Sequence record: NC_100371.1
DNA length: 64,000 bases
Reading direction: 5' to 3' (one strand)
Source: a phage
The notes beneath the pieces were generated by a model. The model made no database searches. It saw only the letters and a list, made by a program, of their open reading frames with translations, and had not been told where the DNA came from. Of this stretch, positions 2,758 through 59,540 are shown piece by piece; position 1 is the first letter of the stretch, and every line of letters begins with the position of its first letter. A program made the position numbers and the translations under genes.

Positions 2758-3661
2758 CTGCTCCCATTCGAATTGCGTCGTTTATGTTCGGGCAAGGTCG
2801 CTAGTCTTGCCCCGCCATTTTCAGGCAGCTGCATGTCTCCATGCAGACCAGACTATATCTTATGAATGTGCAAATACTCTGCTGCTCTAAGAATGGTTTC
2901 CTCATCCTCTTGGAAGAAACCTAAAGCTCTGTTGCATTTATCACAAAGCAACCCTCTTACAGCACCAGTTTTATGGTCATGATCAACACAAAAGAAATCT
3001 CTGTACCCTTGCGTCCTATACTCATCAAGAGATATTCTACAAATGGCACACTTATGATCTTGATCTGAGAGTAAGCGATAGTATTCATCTTTTGTTATGT
3101 GAAATTTCTTCTCAATCTGATAAAACTTTTCACACATCTTACACCTGTTCGTAACCAGATACACTTTACCATAGTCACGTTTTGTGTAAAAACTATCAGC
3201 AAGCATACTTTCATGACAAGATTTACATTCAAAAAGCTCACCTTTCTTCAGTAAGTCTTGAATAAAAGATGCTGCATCATCTCTCTTAACCATATTTTTG
3301 TTTCTACGAGATCCATTCTTCCTGTAGTACATATAGCATTCCTTGCATGTACCGGAGTATCCATCCTTGCTCTTAGATGATAAAAAGAAATCATCAAGAG
3401 GTAGAACTCTTTGGCAATCCATACATTTTTTAGTATTACACATTCACCCTCCCGTTTCGAATCGCTTGATTCTACGTCTTTCGACTAGTCGTTGAACGTT
3501 CATCCTTTCGGATGCTTCGCTGCGGATTATCTAAATTAACACACTGTTACCATACCTTCGATCTCTCTTCGAAGCCTCTATCATGTTACCATGACAGGTT
3601 GGTGGTGTCAATAATAAAGATTTCCCCGCAATTAGGGAGGTTTTACGAGAGCTACAAATTA
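2758..3661 (-). mobile_element. group I self-splicing intron with embedded homing endonuclease gene
   Basis: Minus-strand matches to group I core elements P (AATTGCGGGGAAA), Q (AATCCGCAGC), R (GTTCAACGACTA) and S (AAGATATAGTC), in canonical order, sit between the two terL ORFs. Exon 1 ends ...GAT GAG GGT followed by TAA. Boundaries are approximate. Confidence 0.7.
2853..3443 (-). CDS. intron-encoded homing endonuclease, EndoVII/HNH-like with N-terminal zinc fingers
   Basis: 196 aa; motif DHDHKTGAVRGLLCDKCN resembles T4 endonuclease VII; several CxxC pairs; GGGAGGG RBS; the stop codon overlaps the intron S element. Confidence 0.7.
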   Translation of the reverse strand: MCNTKKCMDCQRVLPLDDFFLSSKSKDGYSGTCKECYMYYRKNGSRRNKNMVKRDDAASFIQDLLKKGELFECKSCHESMLADSFYTKRDYGKVYLVTNRCKMCEKFYQIEKKFHITKDEYYRLLSDQDHKCAICRISLDEYRTQGYRDFFCVDHDHKTGAVRGLLCDKCNRALGFFQEDEETILRAAEYLHIHKI

Positions 3662-5191: not shown

Positions 5192-5268
5192 TGGTCTCCA
5201 CGGAGTGATTCGAACACTCGACCTCCTGATCCCAAATCAGGCGCTCTACCAAGCTGAGCTACGCGGAG
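5192..5268 (-). tRNA. tRNA-Pro (anticodon UGG)
   Basis: Hand-folded cloverleaf: 7-bp acceptor stem, GTTCGAAT T-loop, anticodon loop TTTGGGA, encoded CCA. Confidence 0.75.
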
Positions 5269-5279
5269 TATTTATTATT

Positions 5280-5354
5280 TGGTGGCCCTGGGTGGAATTG
5301 AACCACCGTCTGGCGATTATGAGTCGCTTGCTTGAACCTTCCAGCTACAGGGCC
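5280..5354 (-). tRNA. tRNA-Met (anticodon CAU; could be initiator or Ile-lysidine type)
   Basis: Acceptor GGCCCTG/CAGGGCC, T-arm GGTGGTTCAATTCCACC, anticodon loop CTCATAA, encoded CCA. Confidence 0.7.
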
Positions 5355-5355
5355 A

Positions 5356-5431
5356 TGGTGCTGATGGCAGGACTTGAACCTGCAACCTATTGATTACAAA
5401 TCAATTGCACTGCCAATTGTGCTACATCAGC
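5356..5431 (-). tRNA. tRNA-Thr (anticodon UGU)
   Basis: Perfect 7-bp acceptor stem, D-stem GCAC/GTGC, anticodon loop TTTGTAA, T-arm GCAGGTTCAAGTCCTGC, CCA. Confidence 0.75.
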
Positions 5432-5435
5432 AAAA

Positions 5436-5534
5436 GGTGCTAGGTGATGGAATCGAACCATCTATGTATTCAACGACTACCTCGTCTATTTTCAGGATTA
5501 AAAATCCTCGCCCTTGCCAAAGGGCTTACCTAGC
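5436..5534 (-). tRNA. atypical tRNA-like gene (long variable region; anticodon not assignable by eye)
   Basis: Perfect acceptor pairing GCTAGGT/ACCTAGC and canonical T-arm GATGGTTCGATTCCATC, but about 99 nt long with an unusual anticodon-arm region (AGGAT-TTTTA-ATCCT); no complete encoded CCA. Confidence 0.4.
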
Positions 5535-5632
5535 TCAGCATGTTGACCATGTTGCTAGTCGGCGATGACGACTGTAACATTTGATAATCCGGTTCTGCTT
5601 CCGGCTTTCGCTTAATTACAAGGTCAACAATA

Positions 5633-5723
5633 TGGCAGAGGATAATGGAATCGAACCATCATCGAGTCATCCTCAACGGGACGGTTTTCAAGACCGCTTG
5701 AGCACCATTGCTCCCTACCCTCT
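5633..5723 (-). tRNA. tRNA-Ser (anticodon UGA), type II
   Basis: Acceptor AGAGGGT/ATCCTCT, anticodon loop CTTGAAA, long variable arm, T-arm GATGGTTCGATTCCATT, CCA. Confidence 0.7.
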
Positions 5724-5837
5724 TTTATAAACAATACTGATAATGACACTGATTTTCGAGCAGTTAGTGACTAGTATAAACGACGATAAATATCAATGCC
5801 ATTATCTGTATGATTTATGCATTTAAAAATATAAATT

Positions 5838-5925
5838 TGGTGGTGAGTGATGGAGTCGAACCACCCGAATCGCAATGATAACAGATTTACAGTCTGCCCC
5901 GCTACCCCTACGGAATTAACTCACC
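5838..5925 (-). tRNA. tRNA-Tyr (anticodon GUA), type II
   Basis: Acceptor GGTGAGT/ACTCACC, anticodon loop CTGTAAA, long variable arm, CCA. Confidence 0.7.
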
Positions 5926-6055
5926 TAAATACTAATATTTAAATTCTTTTTAAAATAGCTAGTGTTCTAACCACTAACTATGAGGTATCGGTAAAGTGGT
6001 TACCGCCACTTGCCGAAGATTTACTCTGCTAAAGTAAGCTACATTAAAAAGAACT

Positions 6056-6130
6056 TGGCACCCCGTACTGGACTCGAACCAGTGTCAACGGCTTAGAAGG
6101 CCGCTGCTTTATCCACTAAGCTAACAGGGC
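6056..6130 (-). tRNA. tRNA-Arg (anticodon UCU)
   Basis: Acceptor GCCCTGT/ACGGGGT, anticodon loop CTTCTAA, T-arm ACTGGTTCGAGTCCAGT, CCA. Confidence 0.75.
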
Positions 6131-39536: not shown

Positions 39537-39821
39537 ATGAAACTGTTCGAGTGGTTTAAAAAGTTTAAATACCAGGCTGTTGCTGTATCGAAATGGACCG
39601 TCCGCTGGGTGGACGATGATGGAACACAAATTCCCGGTGATCAGGATACCGGATACTGGGTTATGATGGAGAACGGATTTGGGAAAAGGAAGTTTAAATG
39701 TGTTGGTGCTCCTACTCTTTTAAATGTTAGAAGTGTGCCAGGGTACAGCACTATGGTTGTTTGGGAGCTATCCGGTGTTCCTCCTGCTAATGTGCAATAT
39801 CTGCCAAACCAAGAAAAATAA
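39537..39821 (+). CDS. hypothetical protein
   Basis: 94 aa. Confidence 0.4.
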   Translation: MKLFEWFKKFKYQAVAVSKWTVRWVDDDGTQIPGDQDTGYWVMMENGFGKRKFKCVGAPTLLNVRSVPGYSTMVVWELSGVPPANVQYLPNQEK

Positions 39822-40598: not shown

Positions 40599-40997
40599 GT
40601 GAAAAATAAACTGTTCAAAGTTACAATGAAAATTCGCGGAGCTTGGAGCGTAAAGCAAGGGCGTATCCCCGAATTTGAGAAAGACTTCTACGTAGTCTCC
40701 ACCTCGGAGGAGGCTGCATGCTGGCAGGCTGGCTATGCCTATGCAAGAACCTGGTACGAAGGATACCAGACTGGAGGCTATGACGGAGAAATTGTCAGTA
40801 AGGGTGTGGAAGAAATTAATGTGTTGACAAGTGAAAAAGTTTTTGTTATAGTGCATCCAGATTCCAGAGTGAAGCATTACTGGAATGCCAGAACAAAAAC
40901 CTGGACACCGTTTGCAGATTCTGCTACACCACTTTTAAACCAGAAAGCTCTTGACTCTGCCCCAAGCTATGGGGTTGTTGAAGAAAAGATAAGCTGA
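40599..40997 (+). CDS. hypothetical protein, paralog family B
   Basis: ...VIVHPDSRVKHYWNARTKTWTP... is paralogous to 42804-43199. Confidence 0.45.
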   Translation: MKNKLFKVTMKIRGAWSVKQGRIPEFEKDFYVVSTSEEAACWQAGYAYARTWYEGYQTGGYDGEIVSKGVEEINVLTSEKVFVIVHPDSRVKHYWNARTKTWTPFADSATPLLNQKALDSAPSYGVVEEKIS

Positions 40998-47238: not shown

Positions 47239-47377
47239 CACACAAGTCTGCTTTGCAGGTTTAGCTGCCCAGCTAAGGTTCTGGAGGCACCTATAACATC
47301 TTTCAACTAAATTTCCTACCAACACAGTTACTTACCCACCACACATAACTGTTTGCTTGTTTAGTGAGCAGTCATCC

Positions 47378-47405
47378 CTTGACATTCTTGCCTATCTTGA
47401 TAAAA
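47378..47405 (+). promoter_or_regulatory. sigma70-like promoter with no ORF downstream
   Basis: TTGACA-N16-TAAAAT reading into a purine/GC-rich stretch with no credible ORF. Confidence 0.4.
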
Positions 47406-48766
47406 TTAAGTTCTTCTCTTTTCTTTTACCGAGTAATTCGGGTTTTCTGTTCTCTTCGGTTTGAAGGGGTATGGAGATACACCTGAGTGAACAGGGTGAA
47501 CAACCGAACATTTGGCTATGGCATTAGCATGGCGAAGCGGACGGGTGACGAAAGAGGGGCCGGAGGACACCAGTCACTGCCATATAGTATATGGGTGATA
47601 ACCTGAAGAGTCTGAATAAGTGTTTAAGTACCAGTCAGAGGAAAAGGTGAATGGTAGCCGAAGGGGGAGAGGGGGTTTCTTATATCTTTAATTTGTATAT
47701 TATGTATACACTTGTAAACCAATTCAATTAGGATCTGTTTACCACACAAAGTGGATGGAGACAAATATCACCTATTAAACTTGAATTATTTATAGAAAAT
47801 ACCACAACACCTCTTAAGTATTTGATTTTACACACAAATCTTACAAATATCCTACCTCCATATTTAACATACTTGTAACATATTCCATATCCTACCTGCC
47901 TGATCAATTTACTCCCACCACATCCCCACATTTTCCCTGTCTGTACTACCCCTGCCCCGCCGGGAGTCCCGTCATATCTGGCTTTCCAGCAAATATCGCA
48001 CCCACAAATATCATCACCTGAAGAGGGTTTCATCCCATAATACCTGCCTTACCTGAAGAGCGCTTCATACACCACGTAAATTTTTTAATTGACCCCTCCC
48101 CGCCGCCGGAGAGGTTGGCTTTTCCCACACAGGCCTGAAGAGTCAGCCAGAAATATCTGAACAGGTCCAGTTATACCCCGATTTTGTGCCTGTCCTACAG
48201 GAGTGCTGCCCTGTCAGGAGCCGGTAGCGACTGGAGTGCTGCCAGGCGGACGGAATGGGAATACTTCTCATTTTTATAATAATTCTCAAATATCGAGGCA
48301 GTGAGGCAAATTAATAGGCCAGGCCGTTCACACAGTGGCACAACATTTGCAATCTATCTTGTGGGAGTGAATGAGAATACCTATCATTGTGAGAATGGTT
48401 ATCATTACGGGCAATTTAACATAATACCCATTATGCGCACCACTGGCGATACATACAGGGATTGATAACATGGGTTACTGTTTACGCATATAACAATTAT
48501 ATTTCTTACTATTTGTGTGGGATATAGTTAGCAACCAATAGATTAGATATTGACCTGCAGACTTCTGACCGTCCAGACGTCTAAACGCCCACACAGCAAG
48601 GATTATACATACACTCCTGCATGTAAACAGGACCGCAAAAATGCTACCATACCAGTTTGTAAATTTTTCATGCAGCACTTGACAAAGAGGAGAAAAACTT
48701 GTCTGACACACTGGACACAATGTCCCACAATATGACACAATAACGGCTGTTACTATTCCATATCTC

Positions 48767-48824
48767 ACTGTTTACGCATAGACTGTTTACGCCTGAATAG
48801 TTTACGCAAAAACTGTTTACACAG
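48767..48824. repeat. four tandem iteron-like direct repeats (ACTGTTTACGC)
   Basis: Copies at 14-17-bp spacing; further copies near 48477, 49231 and 49267. Confidence 0.55.
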
Positions 48825-48833
48825 AGATGATAA

Positions 48834-49066
48834 GCCATGCCATTCGTTTGCATGAAAACAATTAACAAGCTAACAATCTATGACATAATATAAAAGCAGG
48901 GCAACTATTAGAAGATCTATAGTTGCCTTGCTTGTTATGTCATGATTAACTAAATACAAGGCAACTATGATCTGAATAATAGATTGCAGACAAACTATCA
49001 CGGGGGTGATTGTTACTGCTTTTATATTATGTCGCGACTCCGTCGCGCCATGCCATTCGTTTGCAT
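48834..49066. repeat. dyad-symmetric element bounded by a 20-bp direct repeat
   Basis: GCCATGCCATTCGTTTGCAT at 48834-48853 and 49047-49066; inverted 18-mers GACATAATATAAAAGCAG / CTGCTTTTATATTATGTC; several GGCAACTAT/ATAGTTGCC palindromes. Confidence 0.5.
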
Positions 49067-49681
49067 AGTTGCCTTATTGTTACAGGTAAAACAATTACAT
49101 TATTAATTATTTCTTATCTTTCTCTTAGTCATCTAATGATTCCAGTCAGTATAGTAATGTACAGTAAACATTAGACGACTAAAGATTTCTCTGTGTATAA
49201 TAACTTATCGTGACAATTTCGAACTGTTTACGAAAAATGTTGACACCTGAGCTGATTTATGTTATGCAGTTTACACGAATAATTATTTTATGCAGGTATT
49301 GACTATTCCGTTATTCTGTGGTTGGAATAAATACTTTGCAGACTATAGAATGGCGTGCGTACGTGAATTCTGAGATCTGGCGGCTATAGTTATACTCGAT
49401 TTTTCGCGTAGAACACGCTTTCGATGCTGTGTAAGTGTATGACTTATAAAGATTTTTAGTTGTTGACAAGATATTGGAGATGTGCATCAGGTTAAAATTT
49501 GTGCAATAGCGGCATTACGTGCACTTTTGGGAGAGAAAACGGGTAAAAATGGCCCTGCTACCACACAATGAAAGATTATGCAATAGTTATTTTCCATGTA
49601 TATTTGTACAGTATGTGGGATTGATGGCTAGTCAATTATTCCACTTGCCAGGTAGGGCCGTTTATGGTAGGAGAAGAGCAG

Positions 49682-49709
49682 ACAAAAAGAAAGGGGCCTT
49701 TAAGCCCCT
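49682..49709 (-). terminator. rho-independent terminator ending the minus-strand gene block
   Basis: AGGGGC-loop-GCCCCT hairpin followed by a T-tract on the minus strand. Confidence 0.55.
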
Positions 49710-49728
49710 TGATAATTCAGTTAAGAAA

Positions 49729-50148
49729 TTATAATGATTCGTATATTTCAAAAATCCGATTTGCCAGGTCGTTACGGTAGCGGAATTTTTCATCGCGCTT
49801 GATCATTAAATCCTTATAGCCGTACTCTTTAAGCACTTCATTAACTTTATAGCGGCATACCTGCATATTATCTTGAGCGTCACCAATAAACTTGTTGCTG
49901 TGGTGCATTGCTTTAATTTCTTCTTCCAGGACCAGGGCAACTACCCGGACCGGATCAAGCTGATAGGCGGTAACATCTATGCGGCATTGTAGACGGCTTT
50001 TAACGTCTGCCACCGGATATACTGCAACCTCTTCCCCGTCAACATTGACAATAATTAGTTTACCATCGATTTCGAATCCTTTCGCCGCCGGACCGTGACA
50101 AAAAGCGTTATCAAAGCTATATGCCGGATTATCAGATTTAATGTTCAT
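49729..50148 (-). CDS. hypothetical protein
   Basis: 139 aa; AAGAGGTAAAAAC RBS. Confidence 0.5.
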   Translation of the reverse strand: MNIKSDNPAYSFDNAFCHGPAAKGFEIDGKLIIVNVDGEEVAVYPVADVKSRLQCRIDVTAYQLDPVRVVALVLEEEIKAMHHSNKFIGDAQDNMQVCRYKVNEVLKEYGYKDLMIKRDEKFRYRNDLANRIFEIYESL

Positions 50149-59162: not shown

Positions 59163-59271
59163 ATTACCTTTTATTTTTGTACCTCCTCTTCAGTTGTTGC
59201 CTACCCTATAGCATAGCCCCGCCAGGTTGCAACGGTTAGCGCATCAGGTTAGAATTTTTTTTTGAAAAGTG

Positions 59272-59540
59272 TTGACAGCGGCCCCGCCAGGTGGCACAAT
59301 ATACCTATCGAAAGGACGGCAGGCACCGGTGACGGGGGAGACAACCACCGGGGATGGGCGCTGCATAAAATGAGAACGGTTATCATTATCATTTAAAAAT
59401 TTATGCAAAAAATCCTTGCTTTCTTTGTCCTGTGTGATACTATAATAACAAGCCGGGGCAACAGGGGCCGGGAGACAATCACCGGGGGTGCCCGTTATTC
59501 TGCAAACGAGAATGATTATCATTCAAAATTCTAAATGAGA
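59272..59540 (+). ncRNA. candidate small RNA units (two tandem promoter plus GC-hairpin modules)
   Basis: TTGACA-N17-CACAAT at 59272-59300 and a TATAAT box near 59441, each followed by a GGCAGGCACC...GGTGCC-type hairpin and the shared tail GAGAA(C/T)G(G/A)TTATCATT; no ORF. Speculative. Confidence 0.25.

What the first reader, a model, noticed from the sequence alone, without database searches (positions are those of the whole stretch)
48834..49066. Dyad-symmetric element bounded by a 20-bp direct repeat
GCCATGCCATTCGTTTGCAT occurs at both ends, and the interior holds inverted 18-mers (GACATAATATAAAAGCAG / CTGCTTTTATATTATGTC) and several GGCAACTAT/ATAGTTGCC palindromes. The architecture resembles recombination or resolution sites, origins, or footprints of a small mobile element.
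Basis: seen in the sequence. Interest (0 to 1): 0.6.

Follow-up and report, generated by a model that had tools for sequence, protein, structure and literature searches.

The report
Conserved hairpin element beside phage terminal repeat
The repeats are real and form a folded, gene-free DNA element just inside the terminal repeat of an rV5-like E. coli phage; two phage subfamilies preserve its base-pairing, so it is probably a signal for processing or copying the genome ends, not a mobile-element scar.

Summary
Observation confirmed. The window holds an exact 20-nt direct repeat (48834-53 / 49047-66), an exact 18-nt inverted repeat (48882-99 / 49016-33) and four GGCAACTAT sites, the only four in 64 kb.

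The window is a Vequintavirus (rV5-like myophage). By homology to PhageTerm-mapped relatives, its 459-bp direct terminal repeat (DTR) is 48245-48703. The element therefore lies in ORF-free DNA 131-179 bp inside the left genome end. It is present in all 117 matching records. The core 48875-49075 is 98-100% identical across 13 relatives, while the spacer between the DTR and the core is variable and indel-rich.

Other genera lack nucleotide similarity but carry the same architecture at the same position:
- Mydovirus and Seunavirus (KPP-1 type)
- Septuagintavirus
- Phapecoctavirus and Justusliebigvirus, in a different subfamily

In these, pairing is kept by compensatory changes (9 of 49 and 8 of 64 pairs). 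A covariance model built only from the other subfamily finds window 48880-49053 and nothing else in the window.

Best reading (unproven): a cis-acting fold-back or cruciform element used in terminal-repeat-linked DNA processing, like T7's inverted repeat 190 bp from its repeat. Rivals are an end-proximal origin or primosome site, a structured RNA, or a terminase-binding site. A mobile-element footprint is rejected.

The parts
48245..48703 (.). Direct terminal repeat (DTR, 459 bp) of the phage genome. In virion DNA this is the left physical end.
   Evidence: Phage LL12's PhageTerm-defined DTR (PMC6658697) maps onto these window coordinates. Record MT884008.2 starts exactly at the base equivalent to 48245 and ends with the sequence that precedes it. 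DTRs of 458-459 bp are also reported for HdK5/EdH4 and Gotham.
48679..48703 (+). Purine-rich motif at the inner (right) DTR boundary: TTGACAAAGAGGAGAAAAACTTGTC, followed by the boundary.
   Evidence: Similar AAGAGRAGA-type tracts end the DTRs of KPP-1, Mt1B1_P17 and, by inference, A73.
48704..48833 (+). Variable spacer of short repeats: GACACAAT twice (48714, 48734), CTGTTTACRC at 48768, 48783 and 48813, plus a near-copy at ~48798.
   Evidence: This is the least conserved part of the region (73-82% identity, indel-rich) in 13 relatives. In phage isim, one annotated repeat_region maps onto this stretch and a second onto the adjacent 48854-48881 spacer.
48834..48853 (+). Left copy of the 20-nt direct repeat (DR-L).
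   Evidence: Conserved with 0-1 substitutions in all 12 aligned genomes.
48854..48881 (+). Spacer with an ACAAGYTAAYAAT-type repeat. In relatives it carries extra repeat copies or a 46-61 bp GC-hairpin insert.
   Evidence: Alignment A1. Match lengths in relatives range from 189 to 314 bp.
48882..48899 (+). Left arm of the exact 18-nt inverted repeat, which forms the closing stem of the dyad. It contains TGACATAAT, an extended -10-like sequence.
   Evidence: Matched to the closing stem of covariance model R1.
48894..48933 (+). Hairpin formed by GGCAACTAT sites 1 and 2 (AAGCAGGGCAACTAT / ATAGTTGCCTTGCTT). 14 of 15 positions are Watson-Crick; the remaining one is a G.T wobble on the + strand.
48958..48968 (+). 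GGCAACTAT site 3 (AAGGCAACTAT). It can pair with site 2 (closed dyad) or with site 4 (alternative fold).
48997..49010 (+). Small hairpin ATCAC-GGGG-GTGAT.
   Evidence: An ATCAC-containing hairpin also occurs inside the dyads of KPP-1, A73 and Mt1B1_P17.
49016..49033 (+). Right arm of the 18-nt inverted repeat.
49034..49046 (+). GC hairpin GCGAC-TCC-GTCGC directly after the right arm. It is part of the junction motif TGTCGC...TCGCGCCA.
   Evidence: The same junction motif occurs in A73 and in KPP-1, Mydovirus and Seunavirus phages, where it is invariant. The homologous terminal hairpin in Stephanstirmvirinae covaries at 3 pairs.
49047..49066 (+). Right copy of the 20-nt direct repeat (DR-R), invariant in relatives.
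49065..49075 (-). GGCAACTAT site 4 (reads ATAGTTGCCTT on the + strand), overlapping the end of DR-R.
49067..49140 (.). AT-rich stretch (76% A+T) directly after the element.
48880..49053 (+). Extent of the structured element as matched by covariance model R1, which was built only from Stephanstirmvirinae homologues.
   Evidence: 30.5 bits, E about 1e-5, full model length, the only hit in the 64-kb window.
49691..49710 (-). Intrinsic-terminator-like hairpin ending the leftward gene block. It marks the right limit of the ORF-free region.

Best explanation
The block is the core of a multi-hairpin dyad of about 175-200 nt: an 18-bp closing stem, internal hairpins, and a GC hairpin followed by an invariant 3' flank. 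It lies in gene-free DNA 131-179 bp inside the left copy of the phage's 459-bp direct terminal repeat.

I propose it is a cis-acting DNA element that works by intrastrand pairing (fold-back hairpin or extruded cruciform) during terminal-repeat-linked DNA processing. Concatemers of phages with a T7-type DTR carry one repeat per junction. That repeat must be nicked and re-synthesised so that each packaged genome gets two copies. A nearby inverted repeat can supply a hairpin intermediate or primer, as proposed for T7.

The invariant junction (TGTC|GCGAC..GTCGCG|CCATGCC...) and the four GGCAACTAT sites would be recognition sites for the phage's nicking, terminase or resolving proteins.

Shown: position relative to the DTR, conservation, and selection for pairing. 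Inferred: the process it serves, and any protein partner.
For: 1. Vequintaviruses and their relatives have short exact DTRs with T7-type packaging. The DTR maps to 48245-48703.
2. The dyad occupies the same position in independent lineages that share no nucleotide similarity. Its left arm starts 179 bp after the DTR in the window, 188 bp in Mt1B1_P17 (DTR verified at both record ends) and 309 bp in KPP-1. There is no counterpart on the other side of the DTR.
3. T7 has a 19-nt-arm inverted repeat centred at 39,588, which is 190 bp from its right terminal repeat. A hairpin-ended DNA containing the terminal repeat has been reported in T7 infection (summarised in PMC4281155).
4. Pairing is under selection.
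   - Stephanstirmvirinae alignment: 99.3% of cells paired against 93.1% in shuffles (0/500) and 25-56% when partners are slid. 9 of 49 pairs have compensatory changes, spread over the closing stem, the ATCAC hairpin and the terminal hairpin.
   - Mydovirus/Seunavirus alignment: 8 of 64 pairs are compensatory, 3 of them in the 21-bp closing stem.
5. Extreme fold z-scores in all four lineages.
6. No convincing promoter or terminator brackets the element. Both strands fold about equally in Vequintavirinae. This favours DNA over an RNA gene.
7. A 20-nt direct repeat flanking a palindrome-rich 193 bp should delete easily. Yet all 117 genomes keep it, which points to purifying selection.
Against: - There is no experimental evidence in any rV5-like phage.
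- The element is far more elaborate than T7's simple inverted repeat. Its four repeated sites, flanking direct repeats and adjacent AT-rich tract fit an origin equally well.
- In Stephanstirmvirinae one strand folds clearly better (-64.6 vs -49.7 kcal/mol, with 7 G.U positions). That is more typical of an RNA or a strand-specific ssDNA signal than of a cruciform.
- The distance to the DTR boundary varies by tens of bases among close relatives, so it cannot act as a ruler for the cut.
- The detail that T7's hairpin end maps to this particular inverted repeat rests on my memory of Chung, Nardone & Hinkle 1990. Only the repeat's existence and position were checked here.
Confidence: 0.35

Rival explanations
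1. End-proximal replication origin or primosome-loading (single-strand initiation) signal. Transcription or recombination-primed synthesis enters from the terminal repeat. The displaced inward-reading strand folds into the multi-hairpin structure and recruits the phage's T7 gp4-like helicase-primase. The neighbouring AT-rich tract melts.
For: - A 76% A+T 74-bp tract lies directly after the element.
- Iteron-like arrays lie upstream, and four repeated sites lie in alternating orientation.
- The inward strand folds better in Stephanstirmvirinae.
- rV5 encodes a PolA-type polymerase and a gp4-like primase-helicase whose homologues include phage ICP1 (PMC3606486). In ICP1 a late origin lies beside the terminus in a 1.3-kb ORF-less region (PMC7145576).
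- T7 has secondary origins at its end-proximal promoters (established knowledge).
Against: - No DnaA-box or IHF-site cluster.
- No recognisable initiator gene nearby. The flanking proteins have no Pfam domain above threshold and belong to PHROGs of unknown function.
- The upstream 'iterons' are the least conserved part of the region.
- The GC-skew switch here coincides with a change in transcription direction, so it is uninformative.
Confidence: 0.25
2. A structured non-coding RNA of about 175 nt, transcribed inward from the genome end, acting in trans or as a replication pre-primer.
For: - Structure is conserved with compensatory changes while sequence diverges.
- There are 7 G.U positions and a 15 kcal/mol strand bias in Stephanstirmvirinae.
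- Mutually exclusive pairings exist (site 3 with site 2 or with site 4), which would allow a conformational switch.
- Promoter-like hits between 48700 and 49350 are all on the + strand, including TTAACA-16-CATAAT preceded by TG.
Against: - No Rfam match even at E<=5.
- The best -10-like sequence lies inside the left arm, so a transcript starting there would lack the closing stem, which nevertheless covaries.
- No conserved promoter or terminator in Stephanstirmvirinae loci.
- There is no strand bias in the window's own subfamily.
- Perfect 18-21 bp Watson-Crick stems are unusual for a stable RNA.
- The -35 region is interrupted by indels in relatives.
Confidence: 0.15
3. A double-stranded protein-binding array that needs no DNA folding. 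It could be a terminase small-subunit recognition site (like lambda cosB, or a pac site), or an end-proximal roadblock or injection-stop region like the T5 iss repeat region.
For: - It lies just inside a packaging cut site.
- It has four identical 9-11-mers in alternating orientation, found nowhere else in 64 kb.
- It has an invariant 3' flank.
- T5 has an untranslated region of nested direct repeats, inverted repeats and palindromes straddling the inner boundary of its terminal repeat (10.1101/866236).
Against: - Compensatory substitutions preserve pairing rather than sequence. A fixed protein-DNA code does not predict this.
- Spacing to the DTR boundary is not fixed.
- It lacks the paired DnaA boxes that characterise the T5 iss region.
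- No terS gene is adjacent.
Confidence: 0.12
4. Footprint or copy of a small mobile element whose target-site duplication is the 20-mer, or a site-specific recombination or telomere-resolution site.
For: A direct repeat flanks an inverted-repeat-rich block. Small GC-hairpin inserts are polymorphic in this region among relatives.
Against: - Present in 117 of 117 matching genomes with no empty site.
- Single-copy in the window and absent from E. coli genomes.
- The arms do not abut the repeats.
- The right repeat copy is part of an invariant functional core.
- The same architecture, with different sequence, sits at the same position in other genera.
- No recombinase, transposase or protelomerase domain was found in the seven flanking ORFs scanned.
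Confidence: 0.03

Closest known systems
Phage T7 inverted repeat near the concatemer junction (centre about nt 39,588, 190 bp from the right terminal repeat), linked to a hairpin-ended processing intermediate
   Same: Both phages have a short exact terminal repeat. In both, the inverted repeat lies in unique DNA about 170-190 bp from the inner boundary of only one repeat copy. Short repeat arrays flank the terminal repeat in both (for T7, from established knowledge).
   Different: T7's repeat is a simple imperfect hairpin: 19-nt arms, 79% complementary, 3-nt loop. Here there is an 18-21 bp perfect closing stem around 2-4 internal hairpins, plus repeated sites, flanking direct repeats and an invariant 3' flank. 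The hosts of the element are large myoviruses that use host RNA polymerase, and there is no sequence similarity. A functional link in T7 is itself only a model.
Phage T5 untranslated 'Repeat Region 3' / injection stop signal at the inner end of the left terminal repeat
   Same: Both are gene-free regions at the inner boundary of a terminal repeat, packed with nested direct repeats, inverted repeats and palindromes. Both are more conserved than the neighbouring ORFs across the phage group.
   Different: The T5 region is mostly inside a 10-kb repeat and is marked by about eight paired DnaA boxes with a fixed 52-bp spacer. No DnaA-box cluster exists here. Two-step injection is not known for rV5-like phages.
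Hairpin-based initiation signals on single strands: ColE1/phiX174 primosome assembly sites, G4-type ssi, and the parvovirus T-shaped terminal hairpin with an adjacent nick site
   Same: A multi-hairpin fold conserved as structure rather than sequence. A conserved sequence lies immediately 3' of the closing stem. One strand is preferred in one subfamily.
   Different: Those signals act in ssDNA replicons or on lagging-strand templates with known host or viral partners. Here no partner or single-stranded stage is known, and the window's own subfamily shows no strand preference.
Lambda cosB (terminase small-subunit binding sites just inside the left end)
   Same: It lies just inside the left chromosome end and has several copies of one short motif in mixed orientation.
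   Different: cosB sits at a fixed distance from the nick site, next to the terminase genes, and includes an IHF site. Here the spacing is variable, no terS gene is adjacent, and there is no IHF site. The covariation points to pairing.

Membership tests
T7-type concatemer-junction hairpin element | The phage has short, exact, non-permuted direct terminal repeats. | tested here: met
   The LL12 DTR maps to 48245-48703. An independent record starts at the same base. 458-459 bp repeats are reported for HdK5/EdH4 and Gotham.
T7-type concatemer-junction hairpin element | The inverted repeat lies in unique DNA within about 200 bp of the inner boundary of one repeat copy only. | tested here: met
   The left arm starts 179 bp after the DTR. 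No comparable dyad lies on the other side. The T7 repeat spans 39,568-39,608, 170-190 bp from its terminal repeat.
T7-type concatemer-junction hairpin element | Hairpin-ended or nicked DNA intermediates map to the repeat during infection. | not testable with these tools
   This needs analysis of intracellular DNA.
Replication origin (iteron or promoter+DUE type) | An AT-rich unwinding element lies adjacent to repeated binding sites. | tested here: met
   49067-49140 is 76% A+T. There are 4 GGCAACTAT sites.
Replication origin (iteron or promoter+DUE type) | An initiator gene or host initiator boxes (DnaA, IHF) are at the site. | tested here: not met
   There is no DnaA-box or IHF cluster. The flanking proteins have no Pfam domain above threshold and belong to PHROGs of unknown function.
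Replication origin (iteron or promoter+DUE type) | A copy-number peak or fork initiation occurs at the site. | not testable with these tools
   This needs read-depth time courses of infected cells.
Small mobile element with target-site duplication | Presence/absence polymorphism, or multiple copies. | tested here: not met
   All 117 matching genomes carry it. It is single-copy in the window and has no match in E. coli genomes.
Small mobile element with target-site duplication | Terminal inverted repeats directly abut the duplicated target. | tested here: not met
   The arms lie 28 nt inside the left repeat and 13 nt inside the right repeat.
Site-specific recombination / telomere-resolution site | A cognate recombinase, resolvase or protelomerase gene is nearby. 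| tested here: not met
   No such domain was found in the seven flanking ORFs scanned. The rest of the genome was not examined.
Known RNA family (Rfam 15) | A match to a curated covariance model. | tested here: not met
   Only tRNAs reach gathering score in the window. Across 47300-49750 the only hits at E<=5 are chance-level miRNA models.
T5 iss-type repeat region | An untranslated region of nested repeats and palindromes at the inner end of the terminal repeat. | tested here: met
T5 iss-type repeat region | Paired DnaA boxes inside the inverted repeats. | tested here: not met
   There is no TTWTNCACA inside 48704-49140.
Lambda cosB-type terminase binding site | Fixed spacing to the cut site and an adjacent terminase small-subunit gene. 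| tested here: not met
   The spacing between the DTR boundary and the core varies through repeat-number changes and 46-61 bp inserts. The neighbouring genes are of unknown function.

The most novel reading that the evidence does not exclude
The element is a previously undescribed class of structured nucleic acid, either an RNA or a strand-specific single-stranded DNA signal. It is shared by Vequintavirinae and Stephanstirmvirinae, encoded at the genome end, and acts in genome-end replication or packaging. It would be loosely comparable in position and 'structure not sequence' conservation to the phi29 packaging RNA, with two mutually exclusive folds (site 3 pairing with site 2 or with site 4) working as a switch.
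Probability: 0.15. Interest if true: 0.8.

Novelty: new variant of a known kind. Interest (0 to 1): 0.55.

Why it matters
rV5-like and phAPEC8/phi92-like myoviruses are among the coliphages, Klebsiella phages and Salmonella phages most often isolated for therapy and biocontrol. How they replicate, form concatemers and regenerate their short terminal repeats is unknown. How any T7-type phage duplicates its terminal repeat is itself unsettled.

A conserved, covarying, single-copy element at a fixed place beside the repeat gives a concrete, mutable target for testing hairpin-primed or nick-dependent models. It also helps in finding the origin or packaging signal needed for engineering and transduction vectors, and in annotating the roughly 2.5-kb 'non-coding' box that has been left blank in these genomes since 2013.

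Tried and rejected
- **Rfam:** only tRNAs at gathering score. A permissive scan of 47300-49750 gave only chance-level miRNA hits.
- **Host-factor sites:** no DnaA-box or IHF cluster, and no Chi site in the region.
- **Promoter and terminator scans:** the window has weak + strand hits. Two Stephanstirmvirinae loci show nothing conserved around the element.
- **Flanking proteins:** Pfam and PHROGs gave no function.
- **E. coli genomes:** no copy of the element.
- **IMG/VR exact-pattern scan:** only 2 loci, not used further.
- **Direct nucleotide comparison with KPP-1, A73 and Mt1B1_P17:** no similarity in the core. Only short patches inside the DTR match.
- **Other side of the DTR:** no equivalent dyad.
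- **Covariance model R1 on other genera:** it did not find A73, and it placed a weak, mis-registered hit on KPP-1 (E=0.028). Homology with those two rests on architecture and the junction motif, not on the model. The reverse strands of the model's own training loci score 36-40 bits, so part of the window's 30.5 bits may reflect generic dyad character.
- **Literature searches:** nothing on transcriptomes, origins or palindromes in these phages.
- **GACAYAAT motif:** not enriched window-wide.
- **Covariation within Vequintavirus itself:** cannot be tested because the core is invariant.

Full report
**1. The observation**

- The 20-mer GCCATGCCATTCGTTTGCAT sits at 48834-48853 and 49047-49066. No third copy exists in 64 kb even at 3 mismatches, and none is expected in shuffles.
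- An exact 18-nt inverted repeat sits at 48882-48899 / 49016-49033.
- GGCAACTAT occurs at 48900(+), 48919(-), 48960(+) and 49065(-). These are the only four copies in the window, against 0.55 expected, and all lie within 174 bp.
- The block folds far better than dinucleotide shuffles: z = -8.2 as DNA, -9.45 as + strand RNA and -8.3 as - strand RNA.

Two mutually exclusive folds compete. In one, the 18-mers close a large dyad and site 2 pairs with site 3. In the other, site 1 pairs with site 2 and site 3 pairs with site 4.

**2. Where it sits**

The window is a Vequintavirus, an rV5-like E. coli myophage. 119 phage records match the 1.4 kb around the block; the listed hits are 91-97% identical.

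The block lies in an ORF-free gap of about 2.5 kb, from about 47240 to 49728, between convergent gene blocks. The original rV5 paper drew this gap as a blank 'non-coding' box and could not find the terminators it expected there (PMC3606486).

Vequintaviruses have 458-459 bp direct terminal repeats (DTRs).
- HdK5 and EdH4 (PMC6563267).
- Gotham (PMC7471380).

Aligning the LL12 repeat to the window gives a DTR of 48245-48703. An independently deposited genome, bov10K2, begins at the base equivalent to 48245 and ends with the sequence that precedes it.

The left 20-mer therefore starts 131 bp inside the left physical end of the virion DNA, and the left arm of the dyad starts 179 bp inside it. No comparable dyad exists on the other side of the repeat.

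**3. Conservation within the genus**

All 117 records that match the 233-bp block cover at least 80% of it. No empty site and no deletion between the 20-mers was seen.

The 13 fetched relatives were compared with the window position by position; alignment A1 holds the window and 11 of them.
- The DTR and the right-hand non-coding DNA are about 90-97% identical.
- The 130-170 bp between the DTR and the core are the least conserved part: 73-82% identity, with changing numbers of GACAYAAT, TGTTTACRC and ACAAGYTAAYAAT repeats and optional 33-61 bp GC-hairpin inserts.
- The core 48875-49075 is 98-100% identical.
- The right 20-mer is invariant. The left one carries 0-1 substitutions.

A 20-nt direct repeat around a palindrome-rich 193 bp should delete readily. 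Its universal retention argues for purifying selection (inference).

**4. The same architecture in other genera, with different sequence**

*KPP-1 (Mydovirus).* Its 514-bp DTR is published (PMC9862379). It has no nucleotide similarity in the core. Even so, 309 bp inside its DTR it carries the following:
- an exact 21-nt inverted repeat 164 nt apart;
- internal hairpins;
- a direct repeat with one copy just 3' of the dyad;
- the junction ...TGTCGC..CGCTCGCGCCAC...;
- a DNA-fold z-score of -9.8.

*A73 (Septuagintavirus).* It has a 21-nt inverted repeat (90% complementary), the junction TGTCGC..GGTCGCGCCAC, and three copies of a direct repeat, two upstream and one just after the dyad. Its z-score is -4.4.

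*Mt1B1_P17 (Phapecoctavirus, subfamily Stephanstirmvirinae).* Its record carries an exact 328-bp DTR at both ends. A 24-nt-arm dyad starts 188 bp inside it, with z = -9.1.

The 139-aa gene next to the region in the window (49729-50148, - strand) is 89% identical in Phapecoctavirus, where it is also the first gene inside the left end.

**5. Is the pairing selected?**

*Stephanstirmvirinae.* The Mt1B1_P17 dyad is the only part of its non-coding end that is conserved (73-81%) in phi92-like, Citrobacter and Klebsiella members of the subfamily. Seven sequences were aligned.
- RNAalifold predicts 53 pairs, 11 of them with compensatory double changes and almost none broken.
- On a fixed 49-pair structure, 99.3% of cells pair. 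Column shuffles give 93.1% (0 of 500 reach the observed value), and sliding the partners gives 25-56%.
- Nine pairs show changes on both sides: three each in the closing stem, the ATCAC hairpin and the terminal GC hairpin.

*Mydovirus and Seunavirus.* The KPP-1-type dyad is conserved at 77-86% across Mydovirus and Seunavirus phages, including SSE121, GAP31 and 4MG. There, 8 of 64 pairs are compensatory, three of them in the 21-bp closing stem. The 3' flank GTCGCTCGCTACGCTCGCGCCAC...CGCGAACGAT is invariant.

Compensatory change that keeps symmetry while altering sequence is what intrastrand pairing predicts. A fixed protein-DNA code does not predict it.

**6. Homology with the window's element**

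Covariance model R1 was built only from the seven Stephanstirmvirinae sequences. It matches window 48880-49053 on the + strand over its full length, at 30.5 bits and E about 1e-5. This is the only hit in 64 kb. The model aligns its closing stem to the 18-mers and its terminal hairpin to GCGAC-TCC-GTCGC. Two other vequintaviruses score 34 bits.

Caveats:
- The calibration is short, so E-values are rough.
- The reverse strands of the training loci score 36-40 bits, so part of the window's score may reflect generic dyad character.
- A73 is not found, and the KPP-1 hit is weak and out of register.

I regard homology between the two subfamilies as likely but not proven.

**7. DNA or RNA?**

*For a strand-specific fold (RNA or ssDNA).* In Stephanstirmvirinae the strand reading inward from the genome end folds at -64.6 kcal/mol against -49.7 for its complement, with seven G.U positions. 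For the single Mt1B1_P17 sequence the values are -76.8 and -60.9.

*Against an RNA gene.*
- The window's own subfamily shows almost no strand bias: -71.7/-69.1 for the window, -100.1/-94.3 for KPP-1, and -83.0/-80.0 for the Mydovirus/Seunavirus alignment.
- The closing stems are perfect 18-21 bp Watson-Crick duplexes.
- Rfam finds nothing.
- The best -10-like sequence (TGACATAAT) lies inside the left arm, so a transcript starting there would lack the covarying closing stem.
- Indels in relatives destroy any -35 region.
- No conserved promoter or terminator surrounds the element in Stephanstirmvirinae.
- The leftward gene block ends at a good terminator, 49710-49691, well before the element.

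I lean towards DNA, with RNA kept as a rival.

**8. What it most likely does**

T7-type DTR phages must regenerate the single repeat present at each concatemer junction. For T7, a hairpin-containing DNA that includes the repeat has been reported and built into models of repeat duplication (summarised in PMC4281155).

T7 does carry an inverted repeat (19-nt arms, 79% complementary) at 39,568-39,608, centred 190 bp from its right repeat. I recall that the hairpin end maps to this repeat (Chung, Nardone & Hinkle 1990), but that point is from memory.

Because 'left' and 'right' are conventions, T7's topology is the same as here: a dyad about 180-190 bp inside one repeat copy. I therefore favour a cis-acting fold-back or cruciform element in repeat-linked end processing, at confidence 0.35. 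In this reading the invariant TGTC|GC...CGCGCCA junction and the four GGCAACTAT sites are recognition sites for proteins not yet identified.

An end-proximal origin or primosome-loading signal is nearly as good, at 0.25. A 76% A+T tract lies directly after the element. Repeat arrays lie upstream. In ICP1, whose replication proteins are related to rV5's, a late origin lies beside the terminus in an ORF-less 1.3 kb. Against it, there are no DnaA or IHF sites and no recognisable initiator among the flanking genes.

The other rivals:
- A structured RNA: 0.15.
- A purely duplex protein-binding array, such as a cosB-like site or a T5 iss-like region: 0.12. It fits the location, but not the covariation, the variable spacing or the lack of DnaA boxes.
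- A mobile-element footprint or recombination site: 0.03. It is effectively excluded by universal presence, single copy, absence from E. coli genomes, arms that do not abut the repeats, and no recombinase domain in the flanks scanned.

**9. Novelty**

The DTR and the blank non-coding region are already published. The phage isim GenBank record marks two short repeat arrays here without comment.

I found no description of the dyad, of its conservation across Vequintavirinae and Stephanstirmvirinae, or of its covariation. I class it as a new variant of a known kind: inverted-repeat cis-elements next to terminal repeats. Its function is unproven.

Noticed in passing
window 47379-47441 and on to ~47700: A near-consensus sigma-70 promoter (TTGACA-16-TAAAAT preceded by TG, 11/12 matches) points toward the terminal repeat in ORF-free DNA. 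A terminator-like hairpin at 47429-47441 follows almost at once, then a purine-rich stretch that folds only weakly better than shuffles (z = -1.67). In position it resembles T7's phiOR promoter upstream of the right repeat.
   Followed up: partly
window 48373-48406 and 59372-59523: The motif GAGAAT-N3-TATCATT occurs twice in tandem inside the terminal repeat. The only other copies in the window are two at 59372 and 59508, each at the end of a promoter-like plus GC-rich unit in another small non-coding region (about 59260-59530; fold z = -1.76). Similar AATGAGAAT..TATCATT motifs occur in the DTRs of KPP-1 and Mt1B1_P17.
   Followed up: partly
relatives aligned to window ~48877 and ~48931 (alignment A1); L028 (Proteus phage Mydo): Small GC-rich hairpin inserts of 33-61 bp, often with a GGCTATGCC core, are present or absent among close relatives inside the spacer and inside the dyad. 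Phage Mydo has a 53-nt hairpin insert in a loop of its dyad. In the window, GGCTATGCC occurs only at 40731 and 60682. These could be tiny mobile hairpins or terminator-like modules.
   Followed up: partly
window 49729-50148 (- strand): The 139-aa protein next to the non-coding end (PHROG 12277, function unknown) is 86-89% identical in Septuagintavirus and in Phapecoctavirus, a different subfamily, where it is also the first gene inside the left end. Most neighbouring genes are not shared at that level. This suggests either exchange of the gene or a conserved end-proximal role.
   Followed up: partly
window 48679-48703; L016 ~3005-3030; Mt1B1_P17 record ~305-328: The inner boundary of the terminal repeat is preceded by a purine-rich tract (AAGAGGAGAAAAAC / AAGGAGAGAGAA / AAGAGAAGA) in three lineages that are otherwise unalignable. 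This is a candidate for the terminase cut-site context.
   Followed up: partly
window 5192-6130 (- strand): A tRNA cluster (Pro, Met, Thr, Ser, Arg) includes a 99-nt tRNA-like gene that ARAGORN reads with a four-base anticodon (5436-5534). Rfam matches that locus to the tRNA model and also reports a further tRNA hit at 5841-5925 that ARAGORN did not.
   Followed up: no
phage collection records MG0656xx: Eighteen records named 'Campylobacter phage' match this E. coli vequintavirus region at about 84-98% identity. At least one is flagged UNVERIFIED. They look like mislabelled or contaminant coliphage genomes.
   Followed up: no
window 48768-48822, 49224-49276: CTGTTTACRC-type repeats lie on both sides of the dyad, all on the + strand. 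Their reverse complement (TGTGTAAAC) is one mismatch from the relaxed DnaA-box consensus, but none is a consensus box. Their number and sequence vary among close relatives.
   Followed up: partly
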